NCBI GenBank assembly: GCA_004298615.1 | Contig: SCPX01000056.1 | Location: forward strand, 6,876 to 70,875 | Origin: Patescibacteria group bacterium | GTDB lineage: Bacteria; Patescibacteriota; Patescibacteriia; SCPX01 | DNA: 64,000 nt | Reading direction: 5' to 3' | Position numbers and translations under genes: made by a program | Notes under the pieces: generated by a model | Databases searched by the model: none | The model's input: only the letters and a program-made list of their open reading frames with translations | What the model was told of the DNA's origin: nothing | Part shown: positions 7,787 through 21,142 of the stretch, in pieces | Layout: each line of letters starts with the position of its first letter | Position numbering within the stretch: position 1 is the stretch's first letter

Positions 7787-7825
7787 TCAAGTAAGCGCTC
7801 AAAGGTTGGTTGAGCGCTTACTTGA
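7787..7825 (+). promoter_or_regulatory. 15-17-bp perfect inverted repeat (caagtaagcgctcaa-N7-ttgagcgcttacttg) immediately 5' of, and abutting, the adhesin start codon
   Basis: The repeat is seen in sequence with no T-run after it. It would sequester the region just upstream of ATG 7827. Confidence 0.4.
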
Positions 7826-7826
7826 G

Positions 7827-10800
7827 ATGAATAAGACTATGAAGATTATAAAGTTTAAAAAAATATTTGCCATAATATCGCTGGCGGCGCAGCTTATTTT
7901 TCAGCCTGTGATCCCCATTTTTGTGCTGGCGCAAGAGGCGGATACGAGTATAGCGCCGCCGCCAAATATCGCTCCGATTGCGGCAGTAAGCGGACCGTCC
8001 TTAATAACGCCGGGCGGAACAGCGCAATTTTCTTCGGCCGGATCATCCGATCCGGACGGTTTTATTTCGGGATTTTCCTGGGATTTTTCTTATGACGGCC
8101 AAACATTCAATATTGAATCAACCGAAGCCAACCCGGCTTATTCATATAAAACTTTCGGCGTTTATACCGCAGCCTTGCAAGCGATTGACAATCAAGGCGC
8201 AGTCAGCAATATTTCAACCGCTTCCATAACCGTAAATTCACCGCCAAAAGTAATAAGAATTGAAATGGAGCCGATACCGGCATATTGGGATTACGAACTG
8301 GACGGAAAATTGCGTTCCTATGATCCGGAAGGGGACGCGATTACGCCCAAACGGCAATGGTATAAAAACGGCATACCGATACCGGGCGCTATCAATCGGC
8401 ATTTGGATCTTTCGTCCTTTACCGATATTCAACCAAATGATGTCTTGACGGTCGCCATATCGGCTTGCGATAAATACGCTTGCAGTCCGCCCTTTACTTC
8501 CGATCCTCTGGCTATTTCAAATTATTTGCCGGAAGCCAAAGCCAACGGGCCTTATTCCGGCTACGCTTTCAAGCCCATAAAATTTTCATCCGCCGGATCA
8601 CTGGACACCGAAGGGCCGATCGCCGGATATGAGTGGGATTTTGATTATGACGGAGAAAATTTTACGGTAGATTCAACGGAAGAAAATCCGGAATTTACTT
8701 ATCAAAAAGGCGGTAAATTCAAAGCGGCTTTGAGAGCGATTGATAAGACGGGAGGAAAAAGCGCAATCAACGCGGCCAGCGTTTCCGTCAATGGCCCGCC
8801 GGTAATCAAAGACATAGTTTTCTTTCCGTCAGATCCTCATTTGGGCGACGATTTAAACGCTTTGCCCGCTGTTTTGGACAGCGATGGAGATCCGGTGACG
8901 CTGAAATACAAATGGAGAAAAAATGGCAATCTGATTCCCGGCGCGGTCGGCGATAATCTGGATTTGGCCATAGGAGGCGATATTCGCAAGGGCGACAGCC
9001 TGGAATTGGAGGCAGAAGCCTGCGATCCTTTTTCGTGTTCGCCTGTTTTCAGATCGGCAAAAATGGTAATTGTTAATAAAACGCCTACTGCCTTGATAGA
9101 CGGCCCGTTTCTTGCCAAGCGCGGCGAGCCGTTGATTCTTGCCGCGCCCGATTCGGGCGACCAAGACGGAGTAATTTCCAAATACGAATGGGATTTGCAT
9201 TATGACGGGAATTCTTTTGACGCGGAATCCGAAGGGCTTTCTCCGCAAATAAATTTTGACGCGATCGGATCATACACTATCGGTTTGCGCGTGACGGACG
9301 ATGAAGGAGCGGTCAGTGAAATCGCCACATCCATTGTCACGGTTTGCGAGCCAAGCGAATGCAGCAAATCAGTTTTAGTCAATAATCATAACGAAGCGTC
9401 TGTTGCCAATAATATTGTCGTGGACGCGTATACGGGAAATAATAATGTTGCCAGAGGAAACGGCGGCGATGTGGGCGATGACGGCCAGGCGGGCAGCGGC
9501 GGGACTGGATTGATTTCAAGCGGCAATGCGGTAGGCGTGGCCAACGCTTCAAATATAGTCAACACCAATCTTATCAATGCGGCCGTGGATCAATCCCATC
9601 AAAATGTTTACGGGATTTATCAAGGTGATTTGAATGTCGCCGGACAATTGGACGCGCTTTCCGGACAATCAGGCGGGACAGGCGACATTTCTCTTTTGAC
9701 CATAAATAATCAAAATTCAGCCGATGTGTCAACAATCATAACGGTCAATGCGGGGACCGGCGGCAATTTATCGGCCGGAAACGGCGCCGTGGCAAATACG
9801 GGCAATGTCCAGGCCGCGGCCAATATTTTCAATTTGGTCAATACCAATGTCGTGGGCGGGAGTTTCTTATTTTCCAGTATGAATGTTTTCGGCGAATGGA
9901 ATGGCGATCTGGTCTTGCCAGGAGATTTGGTTTACACTCTGCAGTCCCAGGGAATAGACATTCTTGAACTCTTGAACAATAATACTTTGGAATTGGAAAA
10001 TATTATCAAAGCCCTGGGCAATACGGGCGATAATTCGGCCGCGGCTCTTGAAGGAGGCGATTCGGAAATTTCCACCGGCCTGGCCCGAGTATTTTCCAAA
10101 GTGTTTAATTTTGCCAACTTGAATATCGTAGGCGGAAATTATCTGCTGTTTATTCCCAATATTCTCGGGCAGTGGAAAGGCAAAGTGATAGACGGGGAAG
10201 ACGGAGATTATAATCTGGCTTTTGTAAAGGAAGGAAAAAAGAAAAAAGTCAAAACCGTGGCGGCCAACGGCAATAAAGCCAAAGTCTCCAACGCGATTTA
10301 CATAAACGGCGATACCGGAGCGAATTCCGCCGGATCGGATAAAAGCAATGCGTCCGTGAATTCCGGACGGGTGGATGTGGTCGCCAATATAATGAATTTC
10401 GTCAATTCAAATTTGGTCAATACCAATATTGTCGTTTCCGTGCTCAATATGTTCGGTTCGTGGAGCGGAAATATCGTGTACGCGTATCCTGATTTGGCCG
10501 CGGCCCTGGATGATGGCGCAGACTTTGTGGCGCCGGGAAACTCATTGATCTATACCGTTGCTTACGGCAATGGCGGAAAAGCCAAAGCCAAAGAAGTGAA
10601 AACATCTTTGACTTTGCCCGAAGGCGTGGTTTATCAATCCAATACCGGCGGCGCGGATCCAGTAATTTCCGGAAATACTTTGACTTGGTCATCGCCGGTT
10701 GTTGCCAACAGCGAAGTGAAATCATTTACCGTGGCTACGACAGTCTCTTCCGATCTTGCGCCCGCTACTGCGACTCTTGAGGCGGTCGTGGCTGTTTCCA

Positions 10801-12167
10801 CGCAGACCAGAGAAAAACGCACGGAAAATAATTTTGCAACCATTCAAACCGCGGTGCAATTTCCGGCAAATGATCCGCCGGCGCCGCCCGGGCCGGATAC
10901 GGGATCGGGAAATCAGCCGCCTGCCGACAATAATGGCACTGATAATATATCAGCTTCTTTGGTGGTGAAAAAATCCAATGACGCCAAAGGATCCAAAGCG
11001 CCGGGTGATACTGTTAATTTTACGGTTTCAGTGGAAAATACGGGGAATGCGTTGATTGATAAAGTCAAAATCGCCGACATTTTGCGCGATCCAAAGGACG
11101 AGAGCCTAAAAAAGAATTATTGGGAAGTCGGCGAAGTGATGCCCGGCGAAGAATTTGAAATTACTTATTCGGTCGCCGTTCCTTCGGACGCTGTGGCCGG
11201 AACCTACACGAATACGGCGCAGGCATCGGGAGTCATTCAAGGCGATGACGCGATTATTTATTCCAATGAAGCGAAAAGTTCATTTTCAGTCAGAGATTCT
11301 CCGCCAAATAATAATGCAAAAGACGGCAATACGGGCGATCAAAATAATCAGTCGGACTTAAATGTTGATTCAGGCAGGACGGGCGGGAATAGTACCGGCG
11401 AAAAAATTTCCGATAAGCTTGAGATTTCAAAGACCAATGATCTGACCGGTCCCATTTTGCCGGGAAGTAAAGTAGGATATTCCATTACGCTGAAAAATAA
11501 TGGCGACAGTACGATAAAAAATATCGTGGTGAGCGACGAATTGGTAAATGGTTTGAGCAAAATAGTGCTGGCGGCCGAAGATTTGCGGGACAAGAAAATA
11601 ACAACTTGGGAGTTTAAGGAATTAAAGCCCGGAGTGGGTTTGCGCATCAGCTATCAATTGGCCATTTCAGGAAACGCGCCGGCCGGCTTTTATACCAATA
11701 CCACTTGGGCCGAAGGGGAGGCGCAGGGCGGCGATAAGGTGTATTCCAATGTGGCTTCTTCAACGATTGAAATTTTATCAATGCTGGGCGTAAATATTCC
11801 GGCCGATTCCGGAGATTTCTTCGGCATTGCCTCGGCTTCGGCCGCGGAAAATATGCTGGGCTTCCCGTCTTTATTTTCTCCGCTTAGGCAAATTGCCGGC
11901 GCGGAGACTTGCCAGAGCTGGCCCCAAAGCATTTGGATTCTAATGTTCCTGCTTTACGCTTCCATCCTCGTCTGGTTTTATTTCTTTGACGGCAAAAAAT
12001 GGAGAGTCGTTTTCCCGTCAGCTTTGACAATCGTGGCCATCGGCCTGTATCTCATTTACGCCTGTCCGGGATCATTCATTTGGTGGCCGATGTCGGTCCT
12101 TGCTTCCGGATTTGTATTGACTGCTCTGGCTATAAATTTTCATCGCAACAGAAGAGCGATGGCTTAA
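7827..12167 (+). CDS. Giant (~1450-aa) cell-surface protein. Its parts are a signal peptide, three or more PKD-like domains interleaved with cadherin-like DxDGD modules, a Gly/Asn-rich repeat region, two DUF11-type repeats and a C-terminal TM anchor.
   Basis: PKD signatures ('FSSAGSSDPDG...FSWDFSYDGQ', 'FSSAGSLDTEG...YEWDFDYDGE', 'PDSGDQDGVISKYEWDLHYDG') are present. DUF11-like motifs ('APGDTVNFTVSVENTGNA', 'PGSKVGYSITLKNNGDS') and C-terminal hydrophobic helices are also present. The start is ambiguous among 7806, 7827 and 7839. Confidence 0.75.
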   Translation: MNKTMKIIKFKKIFAIISLAAQLIFQPVIPIFVLAQEADTSIAPPPNIAPIAAVSGPSLITPGGTAQFSSAGSSDPDGFISGFSWDFSYDGQTFNIESTEANPAYSYKTFGVYTAALQAIDNQGAVSNISTASITVNSPPKVIRIEMEPIPAYWDYELDGKLRSYDPEGDAITPKRQWYKNGIPIPGAINRHLDLSSFTDIQPNDVLTVAISACDKYACSPPFTSDPLAISNYLPEAKANGPYSGYAFKPIKFSSAGSLDTEGPIAGYEWDFDYDGENFTVDSTEENPEFTYQKGGKFKAALRAIDKTGGKSAINAASVSVNGPPVIKDIVFFPSDPHLGDDLNALPAVLDSDGDPVTLKYKWRKNGNLIPGAVGDNLDLAIGGDIRKGDSLELEAEACDPFSCSPVFRSAKMVIVNKTPTALIDGPFLAKRGEPLILAAPDSGDQDGVISKYEWDLHYDGNSFDAESEGLSPQINFDAIGSYTIGLRVTDDEGAVSEIATSIVTVCEPSECSKSVLVNNHNEASVANNIVVDAYTGNNNVARGNGGDVGDDGQAGSGGTGLISSGNAVGVANASNIVNTNLINAAVDQSHQNVYGIYQGDLNVAGQLDALSGQSGGTGDISLLTINNQNSADVSTIITVNAGTGGNLSAGNGAVANTGNVQAAANIFNLVNTNVVGGSFLFSSMNVFGEWNGDLVLPGDLVYTLQSQGIDILELLNNNTLELENIIKALGNTGDNSAAALEGGDSEISTGLARVFSKVFNFANLNIVGGNYLLFIPNILGQWKGKVIDGEDGDYNLAFVKEGKKKKVKTVAANGNKAKVSNAIYINGDTGANSAGSDKSNASVNSGRVDVVANIMNFVNSNLVNTNIVVSVLNMFGSWSGNIVYAYPDLAAALDDGADFVAPGNSLIYTVAYGNGGKAKAKEVKTSLTLPEGVVYQSNTGGADPVISGNTLTWSSPVVANSEVKSFTVATTVSSDLAPATATLEAVVAVSTQTREKRTENNFATIQTAVQFPANDPPAPPGPDTGSGNQPPADNNGTDNISASLVVKKSNDAKGSKAPGDTVNFTVSVENTGNALIDKVKIADILRDPKDESLKKNYWEVGEVMPGEEFEITYSVAVPSDAVAGTYTNTAQASGVIQGDDAIIYSNEAKSSFSVRDSPPNNNAKDGNTGDQNNQSDLNVDSGRTGGNSTGEKISDKLEISKTNDLTGPILPGSKVGYSITLKNNGDSTIKNIVVSDELVNGLSKIVLAAEDLRDKKITTWEFKELKPGVGLRISYQLAISGNAPAGFYTNTTWAEGEAQGGDKVYSNVASSTIEILSMLGVNIPADSGDFFGIASASAAENMLGFPSLFSPLRQIAGAETCQSWPQSIWILMFLLYASILVWFYFFDGKKWRVVFPSALTIVAIGLYLIYACPGSFIWWPMSVLASGFVLTALAINFHRNRRAMA

Positions 12168-12547
12168 AAATCAATAAAACAATAAAAACATAAACCAATC
12201 CGAAAAGTTTTTAAATTGTCAAACAAAAAAATGGCAAAACAAAAACAAAGAGGGTTGGTTTTATTTTTTAAAAAAATTACGCTTGCGGTCAAATGCCCTT
12301 TCCTGCCAACACTCAAGAAGCAGACACTTGGCCGCAATTTCGCGCTTTGTCGGAGAGCGACAAGCATCTTTCTGACAAATATCGCGATCCGCTTGACGCA
12401 AAGCGGCTATGAGCTTGGACTCTTGAAGCTTTGCGCAAGCGGTTGCCGCCATCAGCGAGCCTCGCCTTGAGCGGGCCGCCATCAAAGGTCGGAGGATATT
12501 GTTCTTTTAAGTATTAGGCGATTATTATTAACTTATGAATTGGAGGT

Positions 12548-13474
12548 ATGAAAAAAATATTTTTAGGCCTGGGCGTTTTCGCTCTTGCCTTGGCATTCAT
12601 TCCGATGTTTGCCGCCTTTGAAGCTCATGTGATCAATGTGACGGCCACGATTGAAAACGCTCTGAAGGTCAGTCCGAATCCTGTAGAATTCGGCACCGTG
12701 TTTCCAAATGAAACGGTATACAGAGATATGACCGTTGCGTTAAGTGAGTCTTTCTCAAGAGAAGATCGCGTGGACGATGTGGAGTACAAGATCGTACAAA
12801 AACCCAAACCAAAACCTCAAACACAAGGAACGACAGACTATTGCATACTGGAAAAAGCGGAACTTTACGCTTGTATAACCGCTCAACAGAATCCACCCAA
12901 CAACAAATCTCTCCAGGACGCCATAATGGCTTGTTATGGGAATTATGACACAACTCAATGTTATCCATCTATGTGTCAGTTTCTTTCCAAGCAGCCCGAT
13001 AGGCCGCAATGTTCAGACGGAGTAGATAATGATGGAGATTTGGCTATTGACGCTCAAGATCAGGGCTGCCTTGATGAAGCAGGTAATTATCATGCAGAGG
13101 ATGGTAATGAGGCTTTACCGGGCGTGCAGCCAGCAACAGATCAAGGGGTAGACGCGCCGCATCCGATTGCTGAATGTATGGACGGAATAGATAATGATTT
13201 AGATGGAAATATTGATTACTCTGCCGATAAAGAATGTGCGCAATATGGCGATAATAGCGAGTTTACGGCTGGAGATCAACCCCAAGTTAAGGGTAGGTTG
13301 TCTAAATTGGAAAACGATAAGCAGGATCTATGGATGCTTGATTTAGAAGTCCCGTGTTTTATCGGCCAATGCAAACAAGGCGAAGTCGGCTTATTGCCGC
13401 CCGCATGGGAGCACAGTAAGTTTGGTTGCGATCTGTGGGTAGAGGTGCAAGGAATTTCTGAAACGCCTACATGA
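12548..13474 (+). CDS. Secreted protein with a SipW-cognate-like leader, an Ig-like N-domain, Asp-rich DxDxDG repeats and a conserved C-terminal Cys module
   Basis: The leader reads '...LAFIPMFAAFEAHVINVTATIEN'. Repeats 'CSDGVDNDGDLAIDAQD' and 'CMDGIDNDLDGNIDYSAD' follow. The C-terminus reads 'VPCFIGQC...EHSKFGCDLWVEVQ'. Confidence 0.6.
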   Translation: MKKIFLGLGVFALALAFIPMFAAFEAHVINVTATIENALKVSPNPVEFGTVFPNETVYRDMTVALSESFSREDRVDDVEYKIVQKPKPKPQTQGTTDYCILEKAELYACITAQQNPPNNKSLQDAIMACYGNYDTTQCYPSMCQFLSKQPDRPQCSDGVDNDGDLAIDAQDQGCLDEAGNYHAEDGNEALPGVQPATDQGVDAPHPIAECMDGIDNDLDGNIDYSADKECAQYGDNSEFTAGDQPQVKGRLSKLENDKQDLWMLDLEVPCFIGQCKQGEVGLLPPAWEHSKFGCDLWVEVQGISETPT

Positions 13475-13510
13475 GGCTAAAATTATTCGCATTAAAGAAA
13501 GGAGGCGCTT

Positions 13511-14254
13511 ATGAATAGGATTAGAAAAATAATACTGTACGGACTCGGAGGATTGACGGTTTTGGCGTTCATTCCGCTATTTGCCGCTTTTGAAGCGCAT
13601 GTGATCAATGTGACGGCGCAGATTGAAAACGCGCTATTCGTGCATCCGGAGTCGCTGGAATACGGAACTGTGTTCCCGCAGGAACATTTAAACACTTCCT
13701 TTTTCGTGACTTTCAGCGAATCTTTTTCCGAGAGCAGTCAGACAAGAGTCGGCACGATTGAGTATGCGATTAAGCAAAAGCCGAAACCGTTGCCCGCATA
13801 TGTCGCACAAATCGGCGTGGATTCGGCGCGCGCGTGGTGCCACGATAATTATCCGCAAACGCCGTATGATCCGGCTATCACGGTCTGGCAAGATTATCTT
13901 TCAAGGTGTTATCCCACCATATGCCCAGCCCTGTCAAAGCACCCGGATAATAATCCTTCTACCGGACCAAACGCCAATAACGATATCGGTCTGCCGGCGT
14001 TTCATAATCCCTGGACGGAGTTTGCGATAGGAAAGCTGGTTAAGTTCCCGAACATAAACAATGACCCGGCGGATACTTGGACTATTGATCTGGCAGTGCC
14101 GTGCTTTAAAGGGCAGTGCGCGCAAGATTGGCCGAATTTCGTGCTTGGGCAAAATCCCAATGCCGGAGATCCTCTGCAATACGAGCTTCCGCCGGAATTG
14201 GAGCATCAAACATTCGGCTGCGATCTGTGGGTGGAAGTGACAAAAATCTATTAG
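13511..14254 (+). CDS. Paralogous secreted protein with the same leader and the same C-terminal Cys module
   Basis: It has '...LAFIPLFAAFEAHVINVTAQIEN', 'LEYGTVFPQE' and a C-terminus 'VPCFKGQC...EHQTFGCDLWVEVTK'. Confidence 0.6.
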   Translation: MNRIRKIILYGLGGLTVLAFIPLFAAFEAHVINVTAQIENALFVHPESLEYGTVFPQEHLNTSFFVTFSESFSESSQTRVGTIEYAIKQKPKPLPAYVAQIGVDSARAWCHDNYPQTPYDPAITVWQDYLSRCYPTICPALSKHPDNNPSTGPNANNDIGLPAFHNPWTEFAIGKLVKFPNINNDPADTWTIDLAVPCFKGQCAQDWPNFVLGQNPNAGDPLQYELPPELEHQTFGCDLWVEVTKIY

Positions 14255-14450
14255 TTAAAAAAACTCCCCCGCCGTGAGGCGGGGGCGCCCGCACCGTTCG
14301 CTGGCTGTCCCTCGGTTAGCCGAATCGGTGCGGGACACTGCACCTTAGCACAAGAAGCTTATAAAGTCAACCCTCGCTTTGATCTTTGCATTTTATTGCG
14401 GGCTTGAAGCGGGGGGAGACGGGCCCCCGATTATCATTAATCTAAAAATT

Positions 14451-14681
14451 ATGGAAGAGTTTCTGCTGGAAAATCAGTGGATAATCATTCTGGCGATTCT
14501 CTGGACTCTGCCGTGGAAAGGCATAGCGCTTTGGAATTCGTCTCGCAATGGAGATACCGGCTGGTTTATAGCGCTTTTGATTGTCAATACGCTGGGCATT
14601 TTGGAAATATTGTATATTTACGTATTCAGCAAAAATAAATCAAAAGAACGCGAATCGGCAATGCCTCAAACAATGAAGTAA
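14451..14681 (+). CDS. Small two-TM membrane protein (DUF5652-like, 'WTLPWKGIALW...NTLGILEILYIYVF')
   Basis: It has a hydrophobic profile. The start is chosen at 'MEEFLL'; the 5' part of the ORF (14379-14450) is GC-rich hairpins and probably non-coding. Confidence 0.45.
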   Translation: MEEFLLENQWIIILAILWTLPWKGIALWNSSRNGDTGWFIALLIVNTLGILEILYIYVFSKNKSKERESAMPQTMK

Positions 14682-14818
14682 ATTAGATGATTTAATTTAT
14701 TTCACTCGGCTTAGACCAATTTTCTTCTGCGGAACTCGCTCGCTTGCGCTTCGCTCAAACAGTCCTCGTGCGAAAATTGGCCAACCCTCGCGAAATAAAA
14801 TATATTAATAACTATATG

Positions 14819-15304
14819 AACGATATTAAAAATCAAACAATAGAAAAACCGGAAGAGCCGGAAATCGCAACGCCGGAGAAAAAAGAGAAGTATCGGATGC
14901 GCTTAAGCGATAAAATAATTGCCGCGGTTTTAGCCGTATTTTTCATTTGTATTTTTTACATTGTGCTGGACGCGAACAAATACCGCGCCACAGTCCGCAT
15001 CGCGCCGGGCGAGGGGATAGTGGGCATTAATCCGTCCACTGCCTCTTTGGACTTTGGCGATCTTTCGCGCGGCGCTTCGGCCGTGCGGCGGGTGGCTTTG
15101 AAAAACGGCACCAATCTTTCGATGTATGTGGCGATTTTAAAAATCGGCAGCATTTCCGATCTTGTAGACATAAGCAAAAATAATTTTAAGCTAAAGCCCA
15201 GAAGCGAAGAAAAGATTGAATTCACGGTTTTTGTTCCGGCTTCGGCGGAGATAGACAAGACTTATTCAGGAAGAGTTTATTTGTTTAAGATCCCGATATT
15301 TTAG
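14819..15304 (+). CDS. Membrane-anchored protein with an ASH/PapD-like (choice-of-anchor-D / DUF1573-type) Ig-fold domain
   Basis: An N-terminal TM helix ('IIAAVLAVFFICIFYIVL') is followed by 'TASLDFGDLSRGASAVRRVALKNGTNLSMYV...KIEFTVFVPASAE'. It is translationally coupled to the peptidase gene (stop at 15304, ATG at 15307). The start is uncertain among 14744, 14819 and 14897. Confidence 0.5.
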   Translation, partial: NDIKNQTIEKPEEPEIATPEKKEKYRMRLSDKIIAAVLAVFFICIFYIVLDANKYRATVRIAPGEGIVGINPSTASLDFGDLSRGASAVRRVALKNGTNLSMYVAILKIGSISDLVDISKNNFKLKPRSEEKIEFTVFVPASAEIDKTYSGRVYLFKIPIF

Positions 15305-15306
15305 TT

Positions 15307-15735
15307 ATGGCCACAAATAAAAAGTATTTGAGTTGGTTTATTTATTTTGCCGGACTCGCGATTTTGATTTTTGCCTTGCCGAAATTGCTTTCCCTTGGCT
15401 TGAGAACGCCCTCGCCTATGGCCGCCATCACTTCCGGATCAATGTGGCCGGTTTTGAAGCAAGGCGATTTGATTTTTATCCAAGGAATTGGCGCCAAAGA
15501 TTTAAAAATCGGCGATGTCGTAGTATACCGGAATCAAATCAATAATACCTTTACTATCCACCGGATCGCCAAATTGGAAAAAGAATTTATCACCACCAAG
15601 GGCGACGCGAATTTCCAGGAAGATCCGCCGGTGCGGTACGAAGACATAGTCGGCCGCGCGCTCACATTATCAAATAAGCCGCTCCGCCTACCATATTTAG
15701 GATCAATCACTATGCTGGCGAGCGGTTTGAAATGA
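15307..15735 (+). CDS. Signal peptidase I of the ER/archaeal type (S26B; SipW/Sec11-like)
   Basis: All three boxes are ER-type: 'SGSMWPVLKQGDLIFI' is Ser box B, 'TIHRIAKL' has HR instead of the P-type KR, and 'TKGDAN' is the Sec11/SipW box E. Confidence 0.75.
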   Translation: MATNKKYLSWFIYFAGLAILIFALPKLLSLGLRTPSPMAAITSGSMWPVLKQGDLIFIQGIGAKDLKIGDVVVYRNQINNTFTIHRIAKLEKEFITTKGDANFQEDPPVRYEDIVGRALTLSNKPLRLPYLGSITMLASGLK

Positions 15736-15815
15736 CTTTTAACCTTTAATTATTAACTTTTGCTTTCGTCCCGATGCGGCATTTGTTAATGGCCAATGGT
15801 TAACAGTTATAGTTT

Positions 15816-16463
15816 ATGAGCAAAAGATTATTCGGCACAGCTTCGCATTTATTAAAAATGTTAGCCATTACTCCTTTCTGGTTATTCATAGTTTTGTCTT
15901 TTTTTGTCCTGCCTCTTTCCGCTTTTGAAGCGCATGTGATTAATGTGACCGCGACAATTGATCCGGGACCGAAGATTTGCGACGCGCGGTCTCTGGGGTA
16001 TTGGAAAAATCACGAAGGTTGCGCTTGGGGCGAGGGAGAAAGTATTTGGGAGAGCGCGGTGCAAAGCCTAAGCACCGAATTTTCCGGAATTTTTTCCGCC
16101 GCGACCGGCGAGCAAATGTGTTATGATTTATGGCTGACAAATTGCAAGGGCACGAGCCTTCAGAAAAAACGCTGCCGCGCCCGCGTTCATACCTTGGCGG
16201 TTGAATTAAATGTCGTATCCGGCCGTTTGGATCTTGACGCATTGATTGCCGGCGCTGACAACGGCAATTCAGCCTTTGATCATCTTGGCTTGACTCAAAA
16301 TTCAACAATCAGAGAATCTCTCGCGGCCATTGAAGCGATAATCGCCAATAACAATTCCACCGCTTCCCAGTACACTGACGCGGCTTACGCGGCTGAACGG
16401 ATTTACGAATTTTATGAAAATGAGTGTGCGGAAAAGCCATATTGCATTTACGGGTTTGAATAA
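15816..16463 (+). CDS. Third secreted protein with the shared leader 'SAFEAHVINVTATID'; its mature part is Cys-containing and unrelated to the first two
   Basis: The leader reads '...FFVLPLSAFEAHVINVTAT'. The alternative start M15 gives a cleaner signal peptide. Confidence 0.55.
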   Translation: MSKRLFGTASHLLKMLAITPFWLFIVLSFFVLPLSAFEAHVINVTATIDPGPKICDARSLGYWKNHEGCAWGEGESIWESAVQSLSTEFSGIFSAATGEQMCYDLWLTNCKGTSLQKKRCRARVHTLAVELNVVSGRLDLDALIAGADNGNSAFDHLGLTQNSTIRESLAAIEAIIANNNSTASQYTDAAYAAERIYEFYENECAEKPYCIYGFE

Positions 16464-16499
16464 AATAATATGAGAAAATTTGAGAGGAGGTGAAATAGT

Positions 16500-16886
16500 A
16501 TGAACCAACATGAACATCACGCAGAATTAGTAAGCGGGTTCTTTAAAGAGCAGCGCCAAATTTTTGATTCCTCAAGTCAAGCGATGTACGCGTTTCTTGA
16601 TGATGATTGCAGAGTGTGTAATCAGAAATTTGCAACGCTTCTTGGGTACTCATCGCCGGATGAATGGTTTAAAGTGAATGTGCAAGGAGCTTTTCCAGCC
16701 GCCTTTGTTGATGACGGAAGCCAACAAACGCTCGTGGCCGCATATCAAAACGCGATGGAGAAAATGGAAGGCGCAACAATCAAAGTGGTCTGGAAGAAAA
16801 AATCAGGCGGAATAATTAACACAACCGTTATTCTTGTTCCGGTAGCTTATAGAGGCCACTTATTTGCTCTTCACTTCATTTCTTAA
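16500..16886 (+). CDS. Hypothetical cytoplasmic protein (128 aa)
   Basis: A strong RBS ('gagaggaggtgaaatagtATG') and coding-like composition support it. No family was recognised. Confidence 0.45.
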   Translation: MNQHEHHAELVSGFFKEQRQIFDSSSQAMYAFLDDDCRVCNQKFATLLGYSSPDEWFKVNVQGAFPAAFVDDGSQQTLVAAYQNAMEKMEGATIKVVWKKKSGGIINTTVILVPVAYRGHLFALHFIS

Positions 16887-17128: not shown

Positions 17129-17632
17129 GTGAGAAATATGAAAAGTAAAAAATTTCTCGCAATAGCAGGGATATTTTCGCTTGCCGTTTTCAGCATCGGT
17201 TTGGCGGCAATCGGAGCGGATACTCAAAGTGTGACCGCAACAGTAACTCCGAAAAACATCTCTGTGACCGTAAGTCCTGGTTCAGTAGATTATGGCACTG
17301 TGGCCATCAATACAGAAAGCGCCCCGTCAGTCATTATTACTGCATCAAATAACGGTAATGTCGCAGAAAATTTTAATATAAAGGGCAGTAATTCAACGAA
17401 CTGGACTTTGAGTGATACGGCAGCCGGAGCGGATACATTTATGCATAAGTTTGCAAAGTCTGGTGATAGCTATGCGGCATACACCGCATTGCACAATACT
17501 AATTATACAGCCTTGGCCACCGCGGTTGGTACTTCTGGATCGCAACTCTTTAAACTAAAGTTAATTACGCCAACTTCAACCGCAACTTATGCCCAGCAAA
17601 GTACGACTGTGACAATTCAAGCAACTGAATAA
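17129..17632 (+). CDS. Secreted Thr/Ser-rich beta-rich protein (167 aa), a possible pilin/fibre-like subunit
   Basis: It has an RBS 'aagggggtgagaaatATG' and a signal peptide. The mature part reads 'ADTQSVTATVTPKNISVTVSPGSVDYGTVAINTE'. Confidence 0.55.
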   Translation: MRNMKSKKFLAIAGIFSLAVFSIGLAAIGADTQSVTATVTPKNISVTVSPGSVDYGTVAINTESAPSVIITASNNGNVAENFNIKGSNSTNWTLSDTAAGADTFMHKFAKSGDSYAAYTALHNTNYTALATAVGTSGSQLFKLKLITPTSTATYAQQSTTVTIQATE

Positions 17633-17755: not shown

Positions 17756-19921
17756 ATGGGAAAATATGGCCGTTTGGCAATTTTTGTTTTTATTTTTGCG
17801 AGTGCGGTGTCGGGACTCGCATTTTTTGCAGTAGCCGAAAAGCCGATTGAGCCCGCCGATATTGCCAGGGCAGACGCCAAGGTAAAAGCGTTAAAAAAAA
17901 TTGACGCTGATAAAAATAAAATTTTTGATGATTTGGAAGAGAAATTAAAAGGAAAAAACGACGCGGAGACCGCTGAAGTGATAATTTTGTTTGATCATAA
18001 ATTATCGGACGCGGAGGACGCGGAGATTGCGCGAAAAATTTCAGAGAAAAACCCGGCCCATCGCTATACTGCAATTCCTGGAATGGCAATCACGCTTTCC
18101 AAGCGAGAAATTAAAGATCTCGCATCATCTCCTCTGATTAAACAAATTGAAGACGATGCCGAGGTCCGTCCTTTTCTTGATAATTCCGTCAAATGGTTCG
18201 GCACTCAAAAAGCGCGGAAGGATTTTAGCGTGGACGGAAACGCGGACGGACTGGCCGCTTATTCCAAAGATGATATTGTGGCGGCCGTGCTTGATTCAGG
18301 TGTTGATCCCAATCATATTGATCTGGACGGCGGAAAAATTATCGGGTGGAAAGATTTTGCCACGGGCCAGGCCAATCCTTATGATCAAGTACCGGGCTGC
18401 GGCGGACACGGTACGCATGTTTCTTCAATTATTGCCGGCTCGGGCGAAGGCAATGTACTTTATAAAGGCGTGGCGCCGGGCGCCGCTTTGGTTGCCGTAA
18501 AAGTTTTAAAGCGGCAGGGCAATATTTGCACCGGCACGGTAAGCGATATTAATGCCGGCATTCAATGGGTGATTGACAATAAGGTTGCTTTGGGAATTGA
18601 AATAATAAATATGAGCTTGGGGGGAACGGGGTGTTCGAACGGCGCTGATTCGTTGTCTTTGATGGTCAATAGCGCTGTCGCTTCCGGAATTGCGGTTACT
18701 CTTGCGGCTGGCAATGAAGGGCCGGGCACCTGCACTATCAGTTCTCCGGCCGCGGCCGCCGATGCCATTACTGTCGGCGCTATGGCGGATGTGAATCCCG
18801 GCGCAAGCAGTCTTGACGGATATTGCGACGGCACGAGTTTAACCGCAGATCTGCCGAACAAAGGATTTTATTTGGCTTGTTTTTCTTCGCGCGGACCGAC
18901 AGCCGATGGACGCACCAAGCCGGACATCGCTTCGCCCGGCGTAATGATTATGGCCGCGCAGGCCGGCACAACCAATGGCTATGTAAGTTATAATGGTACG
19001 AGTATGGCCAGTCCTTTTACTGCCGGCGTGGCCGCGCTTATGCTGGATGCCAATCCGGGCCTGACGCCCGCCCAGATTAAATCAATGATAAAAGGTGCCG
19101 CCAAGGATTGGGGGCCGAGCGGAGACGATGTTGATTATGGCGCGGGCCGACTGGACGGATATGAAGCAATCAAAGCGGCCGGAAGTTTCACGGGCGCCAA
19201 TATCATAGTACCGGATCATCAATATTTTGCCGGAAGTCTTTCGGGCAGCGGCGATTTTGATTGGTACGATATTAATATTACGGATGCGGATTATCCGATC
19301 GCCGTCGCTATGATTATGCCGAATTGGACGGGGACATCCAGTCCCGATTTTGATATGAAGCTCTATCTGGCCGACGGGACAACGCAGGCGGGATCGTCCG
19401 AAGGCGTATTGCGTCAGGAAACAATCGGGTATCAGCCTGTTTCTGCCGGCGCTTATAAATTAAGAGTTTATCAATACGCGGGCAGCGGCAATTATTTTCT
19501 GGATATTTCCGCGCGTACGGCGGTGGTCAGCATTACTCTCGCCACTGACGGAAGCGTCAATTTCGGCACGGTAGCGCTGAATGCTTCAAAAGACACGACC
19601 CCCTCCGGCATTAATGATCCGGAAATAGTGCGCGTGGATACGGGTCCGGCTGATTTGTCCGTGCGTTCCACCAATTTTTCAGACGGGAGCAATAATTGGA
19701 GCTTGGGAACAAGCCCGGGCGCCAATCAAATCAAATGGGATTTTTCAAAAGATGGCAGCGCTTGGACGAATTTCGCGGCCGCCGGAACAAATTATCCTTT
19801 TGATTCGGCAGTGCCGGAATCAGACACGCGCGATCTCAATCTGCGCCTCACGCTGCCCTCAAGCACCTCGTCCAATAACAGTCACAGCGCGACAGTGACG
19901 ATAGTGGCGACGACGCCTTAA
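17756..19921 (+). CDS. Secreted subtilisin-like serine protease (S8) with an N-terminal propeptide-like region and C-terminal beta domains
   Basis: The catalytic triad motifs are present: 'VAVLDSGVDPNH' (Asp), 'HGTHVSSIIAG' (His) and 'GTSMASPFTAGVAALM' (Ser). Confidence 0.85.
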   Translation: MGKYGRLAIFVFIFASAVSGLAFFAVAEKPIEPADIARADAKVKALKKIDADKNKIFDDLEEKLKGKNDAETAEVIILFDHKLSDAEDAEIARKISEKNPAHRYTAIPGMAITLSKREIKDLASSPLIKQIEDDAEVRPFLDNSVKWFGTQKARKDFSVDGNADGLAAYSKDDIVAAVLDSGVDPNHIDLDGGKIIGWKDFATGQANPYDQVPGCGGHGTHVSSIIAGSGEGNVLYKGVAPGAALVAVKVLKRQGNICTGTVSDINAGIQWVIDNKVALGIEIINMSLGGTGCSNGADSLSLMVNSAVASGIAVTLAAGNEGPGTCTISSPAAAADAITVGAMADVNPGASSLDGYCDGTSLTADLPNKGFYLACFSSRGPTADGRTKPDIASPGVMIMAAQAGTTNGYVSYNGTSMASPFTAGVAALMLDANPGLTPAQIKSMIKGAAKDWGPSGDDVDYGAGRLDGYEAIKAAGSFTGANIIVPDHQYFAGSLSGSGDFDWYDINITDADYPIAVAMIMPNWTGTSSPDFDMKLYLADGTTQAGSSEGVLRQETIGYQPVSAGAYKLRVYQYAGSGNYFLDISARTAVVSITLATDGSVNFGTVALNASKDTTPSGINDPEIVRVDTGPADLSVRSTNFSDGSNNWSLGTSPGANQIKWDFSKDGSAWTNFAAAGTNYPFDSAVPESDTRDLNLRLTLPSSTSSNNSHSATVTIVATTP

Positions 19922-19999: not shown

Positions 20000-20593
20000 A
20001 TGCGCAATCTTATTCGTATTTTTTTTATCGCCGTATTATTAAGCATTCCGGTAGTCAGTTTCGCCAATGTCGGCGTGGGAGTTGGTTTGGGGAAAATTGA
20101 AATCACGGAAAAATTGTCGCCCGGGGGCATTTATAAATTAAATTCCATACCGGTTTTGAACACGGGCGATGAAGCGGGCGCCTACGAAGTGGCGGCGACT
20201 TTTATGGCTGATCAGAAAGAATCGCGGCCCAAAGAGGATTGGTTTATTTTTGATCCGAAAACTTTTGAACTGGCGCCCGGCGAATCAAAATCAGTCAGCG
20301 TGACTATGACTCTTCCGATGAACGCCAAGCCCGGAGCTTATTTTGCTTTTTTGGAAGCGCATCCGACAGCCAAGAAAGAAGGCGTGTCAATCGGCGTGGC
20401 GGCCGCGACCAAGCTTTATTTTACGGTAGCGCCCAAAGGAGTTTTAGGGGCTTTTACTGCCCGCGCCTCCAGCCTCCTCAATCAAACCGCGCCCGGCTCA
20501 TTTATTGTTTTAGCCGTTTTGGGTATTCTTGCCTTAGCGATTGTTTTCCAAAAATTCTTCAAGGTGTCTTTCAATATTAAGAGAAAAAAGTAA
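20000..20593 (+). CDS. Cell-surface protein with a signal peptide and C-terminal TM anchor (DUF916/DUF3324-like architecture)
   Basis: It has an N-terminal signal peptide and C-terminal 'FIVLAVLGILALAIVFQKFFK' followed by basic residues. Confidence 0.5.
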   Translation: MRNLIRIFFIAVLLSIPVVSFANVGVGVGLGKIEITEKLSPGGIYKLNSIPVLNTGDEAGAYEVAATFMADQKESRPKEDWFIFDPKTFELAPGESKSVSVTMTLPMNAKPGAYFAFLEAHPTAKKEGVSIGVAAATKLYFTVAPKGVLGAFTARASSLLNQTAPGSFIVLAVLGILALAIVFQKFFKVSFNIKRKK

Positions 20594-20656
20594 AAACACA
20601 TTACTGGGTGTTCTGAACAGAGCGGAAGATGCCGAGGATAATACATTATAAAATGT

Positions 20657-21142
20657 ATGAAACGATTATTTTTTTTCATCTTTATACTTTTCTGCCTCTC
20701 TTTTGCGGCGCTGACGGTCTATGCCGCGTCGCAAATTTTGGTGACGGTCGGCGTTAATCCTTTAAATGTTGACGCGGACGCGAAAGGGAATCTTCGGGTT
20801 GGAAAAATTTTTACGCTTCAAACGAGGATTGAAAATAAAGGAGACGCGGCGCTTCAATATGCGACGGCCGAGCTTTTTGCTCCAAAAGAGATTGAGCTTG
20901 TCAGCGGGAGTTCGCAAGAATTTATAGGGGAAATCAAAGGCGGCCGGCATAAAGATGTCCGATGGAAGCTCAAAGCGGCTCTGTCCGGGCAGTATATAGC
21001 GACAGTGCGCGCTCAAGGAATAAATGAAGGAGGGGATAGCGTCTCAAGCGAAGATTCTATTCTCCTTGATATAAGAGAACCGCGCGGTTTAGGCGCAATT
21101 TTTGAAATATTTAGTCGCTTAGCGGCGATGTTTGATAATTGA
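20657..21142 (+). CDS. Secreted CARDB/DUF11-like beta-sandwich protein
   Basis: It has a signal peptide and the motif 'IENKGDAALQYATAELFAPKEIEL...GQYIATVRAQG'. Confidence 0.5.
   Translation: MKRLFFFIFILFCLSFAALTVYAASQILVTVGVNPLNVDADAKGNLRVGKIFTLQTRIENKGDAALQYATAELFAPKEIELVSGSSQEFIGEIKGGRHKDVRWKLKAALSGQYIATVRAQGINEGGDSVSSEDSILLDIREPRGLGAIFEIFSRLAAMFDN

What the first reader, a model, noticed from the sequence alone, without database searches (positions are those of the whole stretch)
14819..15735. ASH/PapD-like (choice-of-anchor-D-type) membrane protein translationally coupled to the SipW-like peptidase
The beta-sandwich motif 'SLDFGDLSRGASAVRRVALKNGTNL...IEFTVFVPASAE' is the MSP/PapD-like Ig fold. 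This fold is often used as a chaperone or usher-like partner, or as an anchor. Its 4-bp coupling to the peptidase gene suggests that it acts as an accessory (TapA-like anchor or chaperone) for the leader-bearing substrates.
Basis: inference. Interest (0 to 1): 0.5.

Follow-up and report, generated by a model that had tools for sequence, protein, structure and literature searches.

The report
Membrane Ig partner of SipW-like peptidase
A small membrane-anchored protein with a PapD/MSP-type beta-sandwich is encoded next to a dedicated SipW/Sec11-type signal peptidase in an undescribed Patescibacteria surface-protein operon, and is most likely that peptidase's non-catalytic helper.

Summary
The interval holds two genes: a 162-aa protein (14816-15304; the true ATG is 3 nt before the stated start) and a 142-aa ER/archaeal-type signal peptidase I (15307-15735). 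They are separated by 2 nt, not overlapped by 4 bp, although ATGA overlaps occur in relatives.

The family is essentially restricted to Patescibacteria. In 47 of 47 informative loci its gene sits directly upstream of the peptidase. It is flanked by two to five genes that share an invariant N-terminal segment, P-x-F-A-A-FEAHVINVTA-x-IENAL. These substrates are not TasA-like.

Function is inferred. The protein is most likely a membrane-tethered accessory that works with the peptidase on that conserved segment. The comparisons are TapA, the Ig domain fused to the archaeal fimbrial peptidase TafD, and SPC22/23. No test here separates a substrate-binding role from a peptidase-supporting role. I rate it a new variant of a known kind, of moderate interest.

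The parts
14816..15304 (+). ASH/MSP/PapD-like single-pass membrane protein gene (162 aa, stop included)
   Evidence: The ORF and ATG were read directly. The product is identical to P0001. There are 226 homologues. The AF2 model has pLDDT 85.
14816..14902 (+). Variable, charged cytoplasmic N-terminal tail (residues 1-29)
   Evidence: It is unconserved in alignment A1, has low pLDDT, and has a K/R-rich flank next to the TM.
14903..14968 (+). Transmembrane helix, a signal-anchor; its C-terminal half and the following LDANKY are nearly invariant
   Evidence: AF2 places a helix at residues 29-50 of the 161-residue model. Hydropathy is 2.85, and at least 2.18 in 40 of 40 homologues.
14975..15295 (+). 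Extracytoplasmic eight-stranded Ig-like beta-sandwich of ASH/MSP/PapD type
15307..15735 (+). Dedicated ER/archaeal-type (SipW/Sec11-like) signal peptidase I, 142 aa, 2 nt downstream
   Evidence: TIGR02228 scores 94.3 bits against a cut-off of 51.85. Human SEC11A (7p2p_A) matches at E 1.2e-8, with SGSMWP Ser, IHRI His and GDAN motifs aligned. A peptidase lies directly after the ASH-like gene in 47 of 47 informative loci.
12548..13474 (+). Leader-bearing substrate 1 (308 aa) with acidic double-disulfide repeats
   Evidence: N-terminus is ...FIPMFAAFEAHVINVTATIENAL. NF033662 scores 43.1 bits against a cut-off of 41.
13511..14254 (+). Leader-bearing substrate 2 (247 aa), the most conserved 'FVHP' type
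13586..13636 (+). Invariant segment AFEAHVINVTAQIENAL of substrate 2 (residues 26-42)
   Evidence: It is invariant in alignment A2, yet residues 26-38 have pLDDT below 50 in the monomer model. The same segment occurs in every substrate of 48 loci.
15816..16463 (+). Leader-bearing substrate 3 (215 aa), the 'C-type': AFEAHVINVTATID then CDARSLGYWKNHEGC
   Evidence: A gene of this type follows the peptidase in most loci, often with a 4-bp overlap.

Best explanation
The gene at 14816-15304 encodes a type II (N-in, C-out) single-pass membrane protein. Its extracytoplasmic domain of about 105 residues is an ASH/MSP/PapD-like Ig sandwich that sits directly on the outer face of the membrane.

It is the single-copy, non-catalytic partner of a dedicated SipW/Sec11-type signal peptidase. 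Both belong to a Patescibacteria-wide operon whose other genes all begin with the same invariant segment, P-x-F-A-[A/G]-FEAHVINVTA-x-IENAL.

Most likely the two proteins are made in matched amounts and act together at the membrane surface. The sandwich would use its conserved edge (the A'-B hairpin plus the last strand) to hold the extended N-terminal segment of each substrate by beta-strand addition as it leaves the Sec channel. That would let the substrate be cut and then passed on to assembly or anchoring at the cell surface.

In function this would make it a counterpart of three known proteins:
- TapA in Bacillus.
- The Ig-like domain fused to the archaeal fimbrial peptidase TafD.
- Partly, SPC22/23 of the eukaryotic signal peptidase complex.

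Shown here: gene, topology, fold, family, synteny and close gene spacing. Inferred: the physical complex, strand binding, and substrate polymerisation.
For: - Fold and topology are established.
- The ASH-like gene lies directly upstream of the peptidase in 47 of 47 informative loci. This includes a distant 63% GC lineage with a 4-bp overlap.
- Starting instead from two substrate homologues recovers the same operon.
- Each fully covered locus carries one ASH-like gene and one peptidase gene against two to five leader genes, and the database holds 226 ASH-like and 215 peptidase homologues.
- Conservation is concentrated at every position of the TM C-half plus LDANKY, the A'-B hairpin (L77-V92) and the last strand (G151-P159). 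This is more than a fold core needs and fits an interaction surface.
- The PapD/MSP fold family is a known strand-binding module. FimC, PapD and the VAP-FFAT complexes are among the structural hits.
- The most conserved part of the substrates is left unplaced in the monomer model. That is expected for a segment used in trans.
- Some substrates carry VWA, LTD, or SdrD_B domains (with faint SpaA hits), which are typical of adhesins or pilus subunits.
- Precedents: TapA, the Ig domain of TafD, WxLIP and SPC22/23.
- One bacterial locus (L054) and two loci with Woesearchaeota-type relatives (L009, L055) have distant ASH-like genes next to secreted proteins, with no peptidase within 5 kb. This points to the substrates as the primary partner.
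Against: - No interaction was tested, and no multimer prediction was possible.
- The protein has one Ig domain, not the two-domain cleft of chaperone-usher chaperones.
- It lacks any copy of the substrates' motif that would make it TapA-like. Profile-profile comparison is null.
- A distance-matrix correlation over 21 loci links it about equally to the peptidase (partial r 0.42) and to the downstream substrate (0.49), so it does not discriminate.
- It is not shown that the substrates form fibres. They are not TasA-like.
- The invariant segment could be cut off at V-x-A rather than kept.
Confidence: 0.45

Rival explanations
1. It is a purely structural subunit of the peptidase, working like SPC22/23 (Spc3). 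The TM helix and sandwich would brace and position the small Sec11-like catalytic subunit at the membrane surface and be needed for activity, without binding substrates specifically.
For: - The peptidase is ER-type and aligns with SEC11A/C.
- SPC22/23 is likewise a type II single-pass protein. Its beta-sandwich embraces SEC11 and is required for activity.
- Adjacency is invariant and the genes are frequently overlapping or near-abutting.
- The TM segment is highly conserved, which suggests helix-helix contacts in the membrane.
- The peptidase is very short, at 142 aa.
- Partial r with the peptidase is 0.42.
Against: - There is no sequence or top-60 structural match to SPC22/23 or ASF1-like folds.
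- From my own knowledge, not tested here, archaeal Sec11-type peptidases and SipW are not known to need a partner.
- Distant ASH-like relatives occur beside secreted proteins without a peptidase.
- The conserved surface includes the strand edge typical of peptide binding in this fold family.
Confidence: 0.25
2. It is itself a substrate, a true TapA-like nucleator. The long N-terminal region would be a signal peptide cut at L-D-A|N-K-Y. The freed N-terminal strand (NKYRATVRV...) would then be donated to the first fibre subunit.
For: - L50, D51 and A52 are invariant or nearly so, and fit the -3/-1 rule.
- The substrates have L/F-x-A at the same distance from a hydrophobic stretch of similar length.
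- TapA also has a 43-residue signal peptide and lies upstream of, and overlapping, sipW.
- A permissive profile alignment places KYRATVRI on AFEAHVINV, and GINPSTASLDFGDLS on FVHPESLEYGTVF.
Against: - That alignment is not significant: P 0.19, probability 0.3%. The default comparison is null.
- Strand 53-61 is a confident integral strand of the sandwich, with one-face conservation typical of a core strand.
- There is no helix-breaking Pro or Gly before the putative site, unlike the substrates.
- Distant members have M or T at the -1 position.
Confidence: 0.12
3. It is a passive membrane anchor or basal subunit. It would accept or cap the terminal subunit of a surface fibre, or tether the co-encoded adhesins, and play no part in processing.
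For: - It is a membrane-anchored Ig domain in a surface-protein operon.
- WxLIP is a precedent: a membrane-anchored Ig protein that tethers co-encoded surface proteins by strand insertion.
- Distant relatives sit beside secreted proteins without a peptidase.
Against: - This does not explain why the gene is placed, in every locus, immediately before and often overlapping the peptidase gene rather than beside a substrate gene.
- There is no linker between TM and domain, so the domain cannot reach through a cell wall.
Confidence: 0.1
4. It is an unrelated small surface or adhesion protein that is merely co-transcribed.
For: ASH-type Ig domains are common in bacterial surface proteins. The profile also hits giant ASH-repeat proteins. 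The window is a surface-protein island.
Against: - Adjacency is 47 of 47, across roughly 40-60% sequence identity to the window protein.
- The family is restricted to genomes that carry the leader/peptidase system.
- There is exactly one copy per operon.
Confidence: 0.06

Closest known systems
TapA of the Bacillus subtilis tapA-sipW-tasA operon
   Same: It is a small Ig-fold accessory protein encoded immediately upstream of a dedicated ER-type signal peptidase, with stop/start overlap in B. subtilis and in several relatives here. It is membrane-associated and low in copy number relative to the substrates. It is proposed to act on the substrates' N-terminal strand.
   Different: - TapA is a V-set Ig protein with a cleaved signal peptide and a disordered N-terminus that copies TasA's donor strand.
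- This protein is ASH/MSP-type and probably an uncleaved signal-anchor with no linker.
- It has no copy of the substrates' motif and no sequence match to TapA.
- The substrates here are not TasA/camelysin.
TafD, the dedicated signal peptidase of haloarchaeal Tat-fimbriae and its Thermococcus/Archaeoglobus homologues
   Same: A dedicated S26 signal peptidase sits in an operon with several subunits that share processing. The peptidase is physically combined with a membrane-anchored extracellular Ig-like domain of unknown role. The arrangement here looks like the same pair split into two adjacent genes.
   Different: - In TafD the Ig domain is fused C-terminally, and the protein has four TM helices.
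- TafD substrates use Tat signals.
- No fused ASH-peptidase protein was found among the 120 best peptidase homologues.
- Homology between the Ig domains was not tested.
SPC22/23 (SPCS3/Spc3) of the eukaryotic signal peptidase complex
   Same: It is a type II single-pass membrane protein whose beta-sandwich sits at the membrane surface beside a Sec11-type Ser/His peptidase and is required for its activity. The peptidase here aligns with SEC11A/C.
   Different: - No sequence or top-ranking structural similarity was found. SPC22/23 is ASF1-like, whereas this protein is ASH/MSP-like.
- The eukaryotic complex is a general peptidase, not one dedicated to a single leader.
[quoted passage not shown]
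   Different: Those chaperones are soluble, two-domain and periplasmic, and work with an outer-membrane usher in diderm bacteria. This protein has one domain, is membrane-anchored, has no usher-like protein among the neighbouring genes scanned, and comes from a Patescibacteria genome (monoderm from my own knowledge, not tested).
WxLIP (DUF916-DUF3324) of Gram-positive WxL clusters
   Different: WxLIP has two Ig domains and a C-terminal anchor, has no associated peptidase, and binds peptidoglycan-binding WxL partners.

Membership tests
ASH / MSP / PapD-like Ig superfamily | Sequence match above the curated Pfam threshold (ASH PF15780, PapD-like PF14874, MSP) | tested here: not met
   ASH scores E 0.02 and 15.5 bits against 27. 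PG_0320-like_C scores 20.5 bits against 27. Cep192_D3 scores 15.1 bits against 27.
ASH / MSP / PapD-like Ig superfamily | Seven- to eight-stranded Ig sandwich whose closest solved structures are ASH/MSP/PapD domains | tested here: met
ASH / MSP / PapD-like Ig superfamily | A family profile recovers bona fide members | tested here: met
   Profile A1 hits P0241 at E 1.8e-56 over 27 repeats. P0241 scores 4e-209 against Pfam ASH.
Choice-of-anchor D domain (NF012200) | Score at or above the curated cut-off of 45 bits | tested here: not met
   16.3 bits, E 0.011.
Chaperone-usher periplasmic chaperone (PapD/FimC) | Two Ig domains (PapD_N plus PapD_C) forming a cleft | tested here: not met
   There is one domain of about 105 residues after the TM. 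No PapD_N or PapD_C hit appears at E up to 1.
Chaperone-usher periplasmic chaperone (PapD/FimC) | A cognate outer-membrane usher encoded alongside | tested here: not met
   None of the nine neighbouring proteins scanned in the window hits an usher family, and no usher family appears in the precomputed Pfam listings of the related loci. The source is a Patescibacteria MAG.
Chaperone-usher periplasmic chaperone (PapD/FimC) | Conserved basic pair in the cleft that anchors the subunit's C-terminus | not tested
R90 is invariant, but its equivalence is unknown.
TapA (TasA anchoring/assembly protein) | Gene immediately upstream of the sipW-type gene and closely spaced with it | tested here: met
   The spacer is 2 nt here. 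Adjacency holds in 47 of 47 loci, with a 4-bp overlap in 7 of 40.
TapA (TasA anchoring/assembly protein) | N-terminal segment homologous to the fibre subunit's donor strand, behind a cleaved SipW-type signal peptide | tested here: not met
   There is no FEAHV-type motif. hhalign of A1 against A2 is null. The permissive run gives P 0.19. Cleavage was not testable.
TapA (TasA anchoring/assembly protein) | Sequence family or V-set Ig fold of TapA | tested here: not met
SPC22/23 (Spc3) signal peptidase complex subunit | Type II single-pass topology with a beta-sandwich at the extracytoplasmic membrane face | tested here: met
   The description of SPC22/23 is.
SPC22/23 (Spc3) signal peptidase complex subunit | Partner is a Sec11-type Ser/His peptidase | tested here: met
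   TIGR02228 scores 94.3 bits. SEC11A matches at E 1.2e-8.
SPC22/23 (Spc3) signal peptidase complex subunit | Sequence or fold membership (SPC22 family, ASF1-like sandwich) | tested here: not met
SPC22/23 (Spc3) signal peptidase complex subunit | Stable physical complex with the peptidase, required for activity | not testable with these tools
   This needs a multimer prediction or biochemistry.
TafD-type fimbrial signal peptidase with Ig-like domain | Ig-like domain fused to the peptidase in one polypeptide | tested here: not met
   The genes are separate. The 120 best peptidase homologues are 109-232 aa, and the five longest or most divergent inspected carry only insertions or N-terminal extensions, no ASH domain.

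The most novel reading that the evidence does not exclude
The protein is a PapD-fold assembly chaperone or platform working at the cytoplasmic membrane of a monoderm bacterium. Tethered next to a Sec11-type peptidase, it would capture the conserved N-terminal strand of the substrates and drive usher-free donor-strand polymerisation of a previously unseen, non-TasA, non-type-IV surface filament. That filament would be common across the Parcubacteria-type lineages sampled here (Vogel-, Yonath-, Ryan-, Azam- and Giovannonibacteria). Equivalently, ASH-like protein plus peptidase would be a two-subunit prokaryotic signal peptidase complex.
Probability: 0.15. Interest if true: 0.8.

Novelty: new variant of a known kind. 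Interest (0 to 1): 0.55.

Why it matters
Patescibacteria are ultrasmall bacteria, and all cultivated members are obligate episymbionts on other microbes. Their attachment to hosts has so far been studied mainly through type IV pili (abstract listed).

This operon is widespread and strongly conserved in the Parcubacteria-type lineages sampled here. It combines a dedicated Sec11/SipW-type peptidase, a membrane Ig partner, and several proteins with one invariant N-terminal segment, some of which carry VWA, LTD or SdrD_B adhesin modules. I found no description of it in the searchable literature.

If the ASH-like protein is a membrane-tethered strand-binding helper, it would extend the PapD/MSP strand-binding principle to a monoderm, usher-free setting. 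It would also link three arrangements that are currently treated separately: TapA-SipW, TafD with its fused Ig domain, and SPC22/23-SEC11. The hypothesis is simple to test with a few recombinant proteins.

Tried and rejected
- **Common origin of accessory and substrates.** Profile-profile comparison of the ASH-like family with the substrate family gave no similarity. A permissive run gave an appealing but non-significant alignment, P 0.19. Common origin is therefore not claimed.
- **Distance-matrix correlation (mirror-tree test).** Over 21 complete loci the partial r was 0.42 with the peptidase, 0.49 with the downstream substrate and 0.0 with the upstream substrate. The sample is too small and is confounded by paralogy, so the result is not decisive.
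- **Search for ASH-peptidase fusion proteins.** None were found among the best 120 peptidase homologues or the best 150 profile hits.
- **AFDB fold search.** The library was not available.
- **Literature.** Searches for this operon in Patescibacteria returned nothing relevant.
- **Promoter and terminator scan of 12100-16700.** Counts were at shuffle level, so it is uninformative about transcription units.
- **Distant archaeal relatives (L009, L055).** Their neighbours have no family hits, so they give only weak support.
- **PDB sequence search with the family profile.** It found only insignificant Hydin and FAP74 repeat matches, E about 0.14.

Full report
**What is in the interval.**
- The first ORF runs to a TAG at 15302-15304. 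Its first ATG is at 14816, not 14819.
- The 162-aa product is identical to a deposited hypothetical protein of a Patescibacteria MAG (P0001).
- The second gene (ATG 15307, stop 15733-15735) encodes a 142-aa signal peptidase.
- The two genes are separated by TT. The stated 4-bp overlap is not present here.
- The quoted sequence motifs are present.

**The peptidase.**
- It passes the curated model for archaeal/ER-type signal peptidase I: TIGR02228 scores 94.3 bits against a cut-off of 51.85.
- It aligns with human SEC11A/C at E about 1e-8. The Ser (SGSMWP), His (IHRI) and GDAN motifs are in register.

**The first protein: anatomy.**
- An alignment of 40 homologues (A1) shows a variable charged N-tail. 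One hydrophobic helix follows, whose C-terminal half and the LDANKY after it are nearly invariant. A well-conserved domain of about 105 residues completes the protein.
- Hydropathy is 2.85 here and at least 2.18 in all 40. The N-flank carries about twice as many K+R as the C-flank, so the domain faces outward.
- AF2 on A1 gives mean pLDDT 85. It predicts a helix at residues 29-50, followed after two residues by eight strands at pLDDT of about 90 or more, apart from a dip to 75-77 in the loop at residues 62-75. There is no linker, so the sandwich sits on the membrane surface.

**The first protein: fold.**
- Foldseek returns the same families, but no hit better than E 2.6e-3.
- Every curated sequence model is missed: ASH 15.5 bits against 27, PG_0320-like_C 20.5 against 27, and choice-of-anchor D 16.3 against 45.
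- A profile of the family searched against 1.84 billion representatives finds 901 proteins at E up to 1e-3. Among them are giant proteins with many repeats that are unambiguous Pfam ASH proteins.
- The fold-superfamily assignment is therefore supported. Membership of a named family is not.

**Distribution and context.**
- The named homologues come from Patescibacteria/Parcubacteria-type MAGs (Vogel-, Yonath-, Ryan-, Azam-, Giovannoni-, Doudna-, Uhrbacteria). Most other homologues carry no source name, and two loci sit in MAGs labelled Gammaproteobacteria.
- I collected 48 loci.
- The gene order is almost fixed. One to four genes come first, whose products start ...P(M/L)F(A/S)A-FEAHVINVTA-x-IENAL. 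Then come the ASH-like gene and the peptidase. Usually a further gene follows, starting ...[A/G]FEAHVINVTATI(D/E) and then often C-[DN]-A-x-S-x-GYW(K/R)NHEGC.
- A peptidase lies directly downstream of the ASH-like gene in 47 of 47 loci where the contig allows a test.
- Spacers are short. Seven loci have a 4-bp overlap, eight have 2-3 nt, and 28 of 40 have 18 nt or less. Start calls used a simple first-ATG rule.
- Starting from two substrate homologues on long contigs recovers the same operon.
- A distant 63% GC lineage keeps the arrangement, with an AFESHxIN leader variant, an ASH-like gene, and a peptidase overlapping it by 4 bp.
- Still more distant TM-plus-ASH proteins lie beside secreted proteins with no SipW-like gene within 5 kb. 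These are one bacterial locus next to a YEAHIMTVTA-leader protein and two loci with Woesearchaeota-type relatives.

**The substrates.**
- The 247-aa protein (13511-14254) has 802 homologues at about 60% identity.
- Its AF2 model (pLDDT 84) is an Ig-like sandwich with a Cys-rich helical insert.
- The invariant AFEAHVINVTAQIE segment is the only long stretch with pLDDT below 50.
- There is no TasA/camelysin or SipW-cognate signal model hit.
- Larger paralogues in other loci carry VWA, LTD or SdrD_B modules, with faint SpaA hits.
- Across all loci the residue before FEAHV is always A or G, while the one before that varies widely. This favours cleavage at [A/G]|[F/Y]EAHV, which keeps the invariant segment on the mature protein.
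- A canonical V-x-A| site at the end of the motif is an alternative, and it would remove the segment.
- That these proteins polymerise is an inference from three things: the shared N-terminal segment, the unplaced strand, and the precedents of TasA, Abp and tafi.

**How the ASH-like protein most likely works.**

Facts:
- Invariant adjacency and close spacing with the peptidase.
- One copy per operon, against two to five substrates.
- A domain held at the membrane face, where signal peptidases cut.
- Conservation at every position of the TM C-half plus LDANKY, the A'-B hairpin (L77-V92) and the last strand (G151-P159). Strand A alternates, as a plain core strand does.
- A fold family repeatedly used to bind extended peptides by strand addition (PapD/FimC with pilins, VAP with FFAT).

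Inference:
- It is a non-catalytic partner that acts together with the peptidase on the substrates' conserved N-terminal segment. It would hold or present that segment for cleavage and hand-over to surface assembly.

**Precedents for this reading.**
- TapA is an Ig-fold protein encoded upstream of and overlapping sipW. It acts on TasA's strand-accepting site.
- TafD is an archaeal fimbrial signal peptidase that carries a membrane-anchored Ig-like domain of unknown role in the same polypeptide.
- WxLIP is a membrane-anchored Ig protein that binds co-encoded surface proteins.

**The main rival and why it cannot be excluded.**
- The main rival is a purely structural SPC22/23-like subunit. SPC22/23 is a type II protein whose sandwich embraces SEC11 and is needed for activity.
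- I could not separate the two readings. The distance-matrix correlation is equivocal and no multimer prediction was available.
- A TapA-like cleaved nucleator (cut at LDA|NKY) is less likely. Strand 53-61 is an integral, one-face-conserved strand, no helix breaker precedes the site, and distant members have M or T at position -1.

**Comparison, novelty and verdict.**
- It works like TapA, the TafD Ig domain or SPC22/23, but it is a member of none of them. It also fails the thresholds of ASH and choice-of-anchor D, while sharing their fold superfamily.
- The substrates are a separate family from TasA.
- I found no description of this operon.
- I class it as a new variant of a known kind: a dedicated SipW-type peptidase, an Ig accessory, and co-encoded surface or fibre proteins.
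- Interest is 0.55. The system is widespread and conserved in a poorly understood phylum and offers a testable mechanistic idea, but every functional statement is inferred.

Noticed in passing
window 14379-14681 (+): A DUF5652 membrane-protein gene (Pfam E 3e-23) sits between the second substrate gene and the ASH-like gene. In the other loci that gap is usually around 60-100 bp (longer in some), so this looks like a local insertion into the operon.
   Followed up: partly
window 15816-16463 (+) and the gene after the peptidase in most related loci: The downstream leader-bearing protein has a different body, with no family hit and not modelled here. It carries a conserved C-[DN]-A-x-S-x-GYW(K/R)NHEGC motif right after the leader. 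It often overlaps the peptidase gene by 4 bp, and its divergence tracks that of the ASH-like protein (partial r 0.49).
   Followed up: partly
window 12548-13474 (+): The first substrate carries acidic double-disulfide repeats (NF033662, 43.1 bits against a cut-off of 41) inserted in the Ig-like body.
   Followed up: no
window 14266-14285: A perfect 8-bp all-G+C hairpin (CCCCCGCC-GTGA-GGCGGGGG) lies just after the second substrate gene. It has a T-run only on the minus strand, so it is not a canonical + strand terminator.
   Followed up: no
window 7806-12167, 17129-17632, 17756-19921, 20000-21142 (+): The operon lies in a surface-protein island. The island holds a 1453-aa PKD/DUF11/DUF7507 protein with C-terminal TM helices, a 167-aa secreted protein with a weak choice-of-anchor D hit, an S8 subtilase with Tk-SP propeptide and PPC domains, and two small CARDB/fn3-like proteins.
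   Followed up: partly
window 16500-16886 (+): A 128-aa stand-alone PAS-domain protein (PAS_8, E 3e-6) lies directly after the operon.
   Followed up: no
L009 2876-5423 and L055 2206-5423: Distant TM-plus-ASH proteins close four-gene operons in L009 (protein found in a Woesearchaeota MAG) and in the similar, untyped 34% GC locus L055. The other genes encode small TM proteins, N-glycosylation-motif-rich secreted beta proteins (motif ...VNFT..S....FGSGY) and a protein of about 380 aa with an N-terminal signal-like hydrophobic stretch (C-terminal TM seen in L009). No signal peptidase lies within 5 kb.
   Followed up: partly
L053 2666-6370: A 63% GC lineage has the same operon with a divergent leader (FAAFESH[MQ]IN) and long Pro/Arg-rich cytoplasmic tails on both the ASH-like protein (223 aa) and the peptidase (233 aa).
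   Followed up: partly
L003 2187-4835, L008 3753-5048, L051 3510-4922, L052 3395-4702: Some leader-bearing paralogues carry a VWA domain. Others downstream carry LTD or SdrD_B domains (with faint SpaA hits). This pattern recalls tip adhesins and stalk subunits of Gram-positive pili.
   Followed up: no
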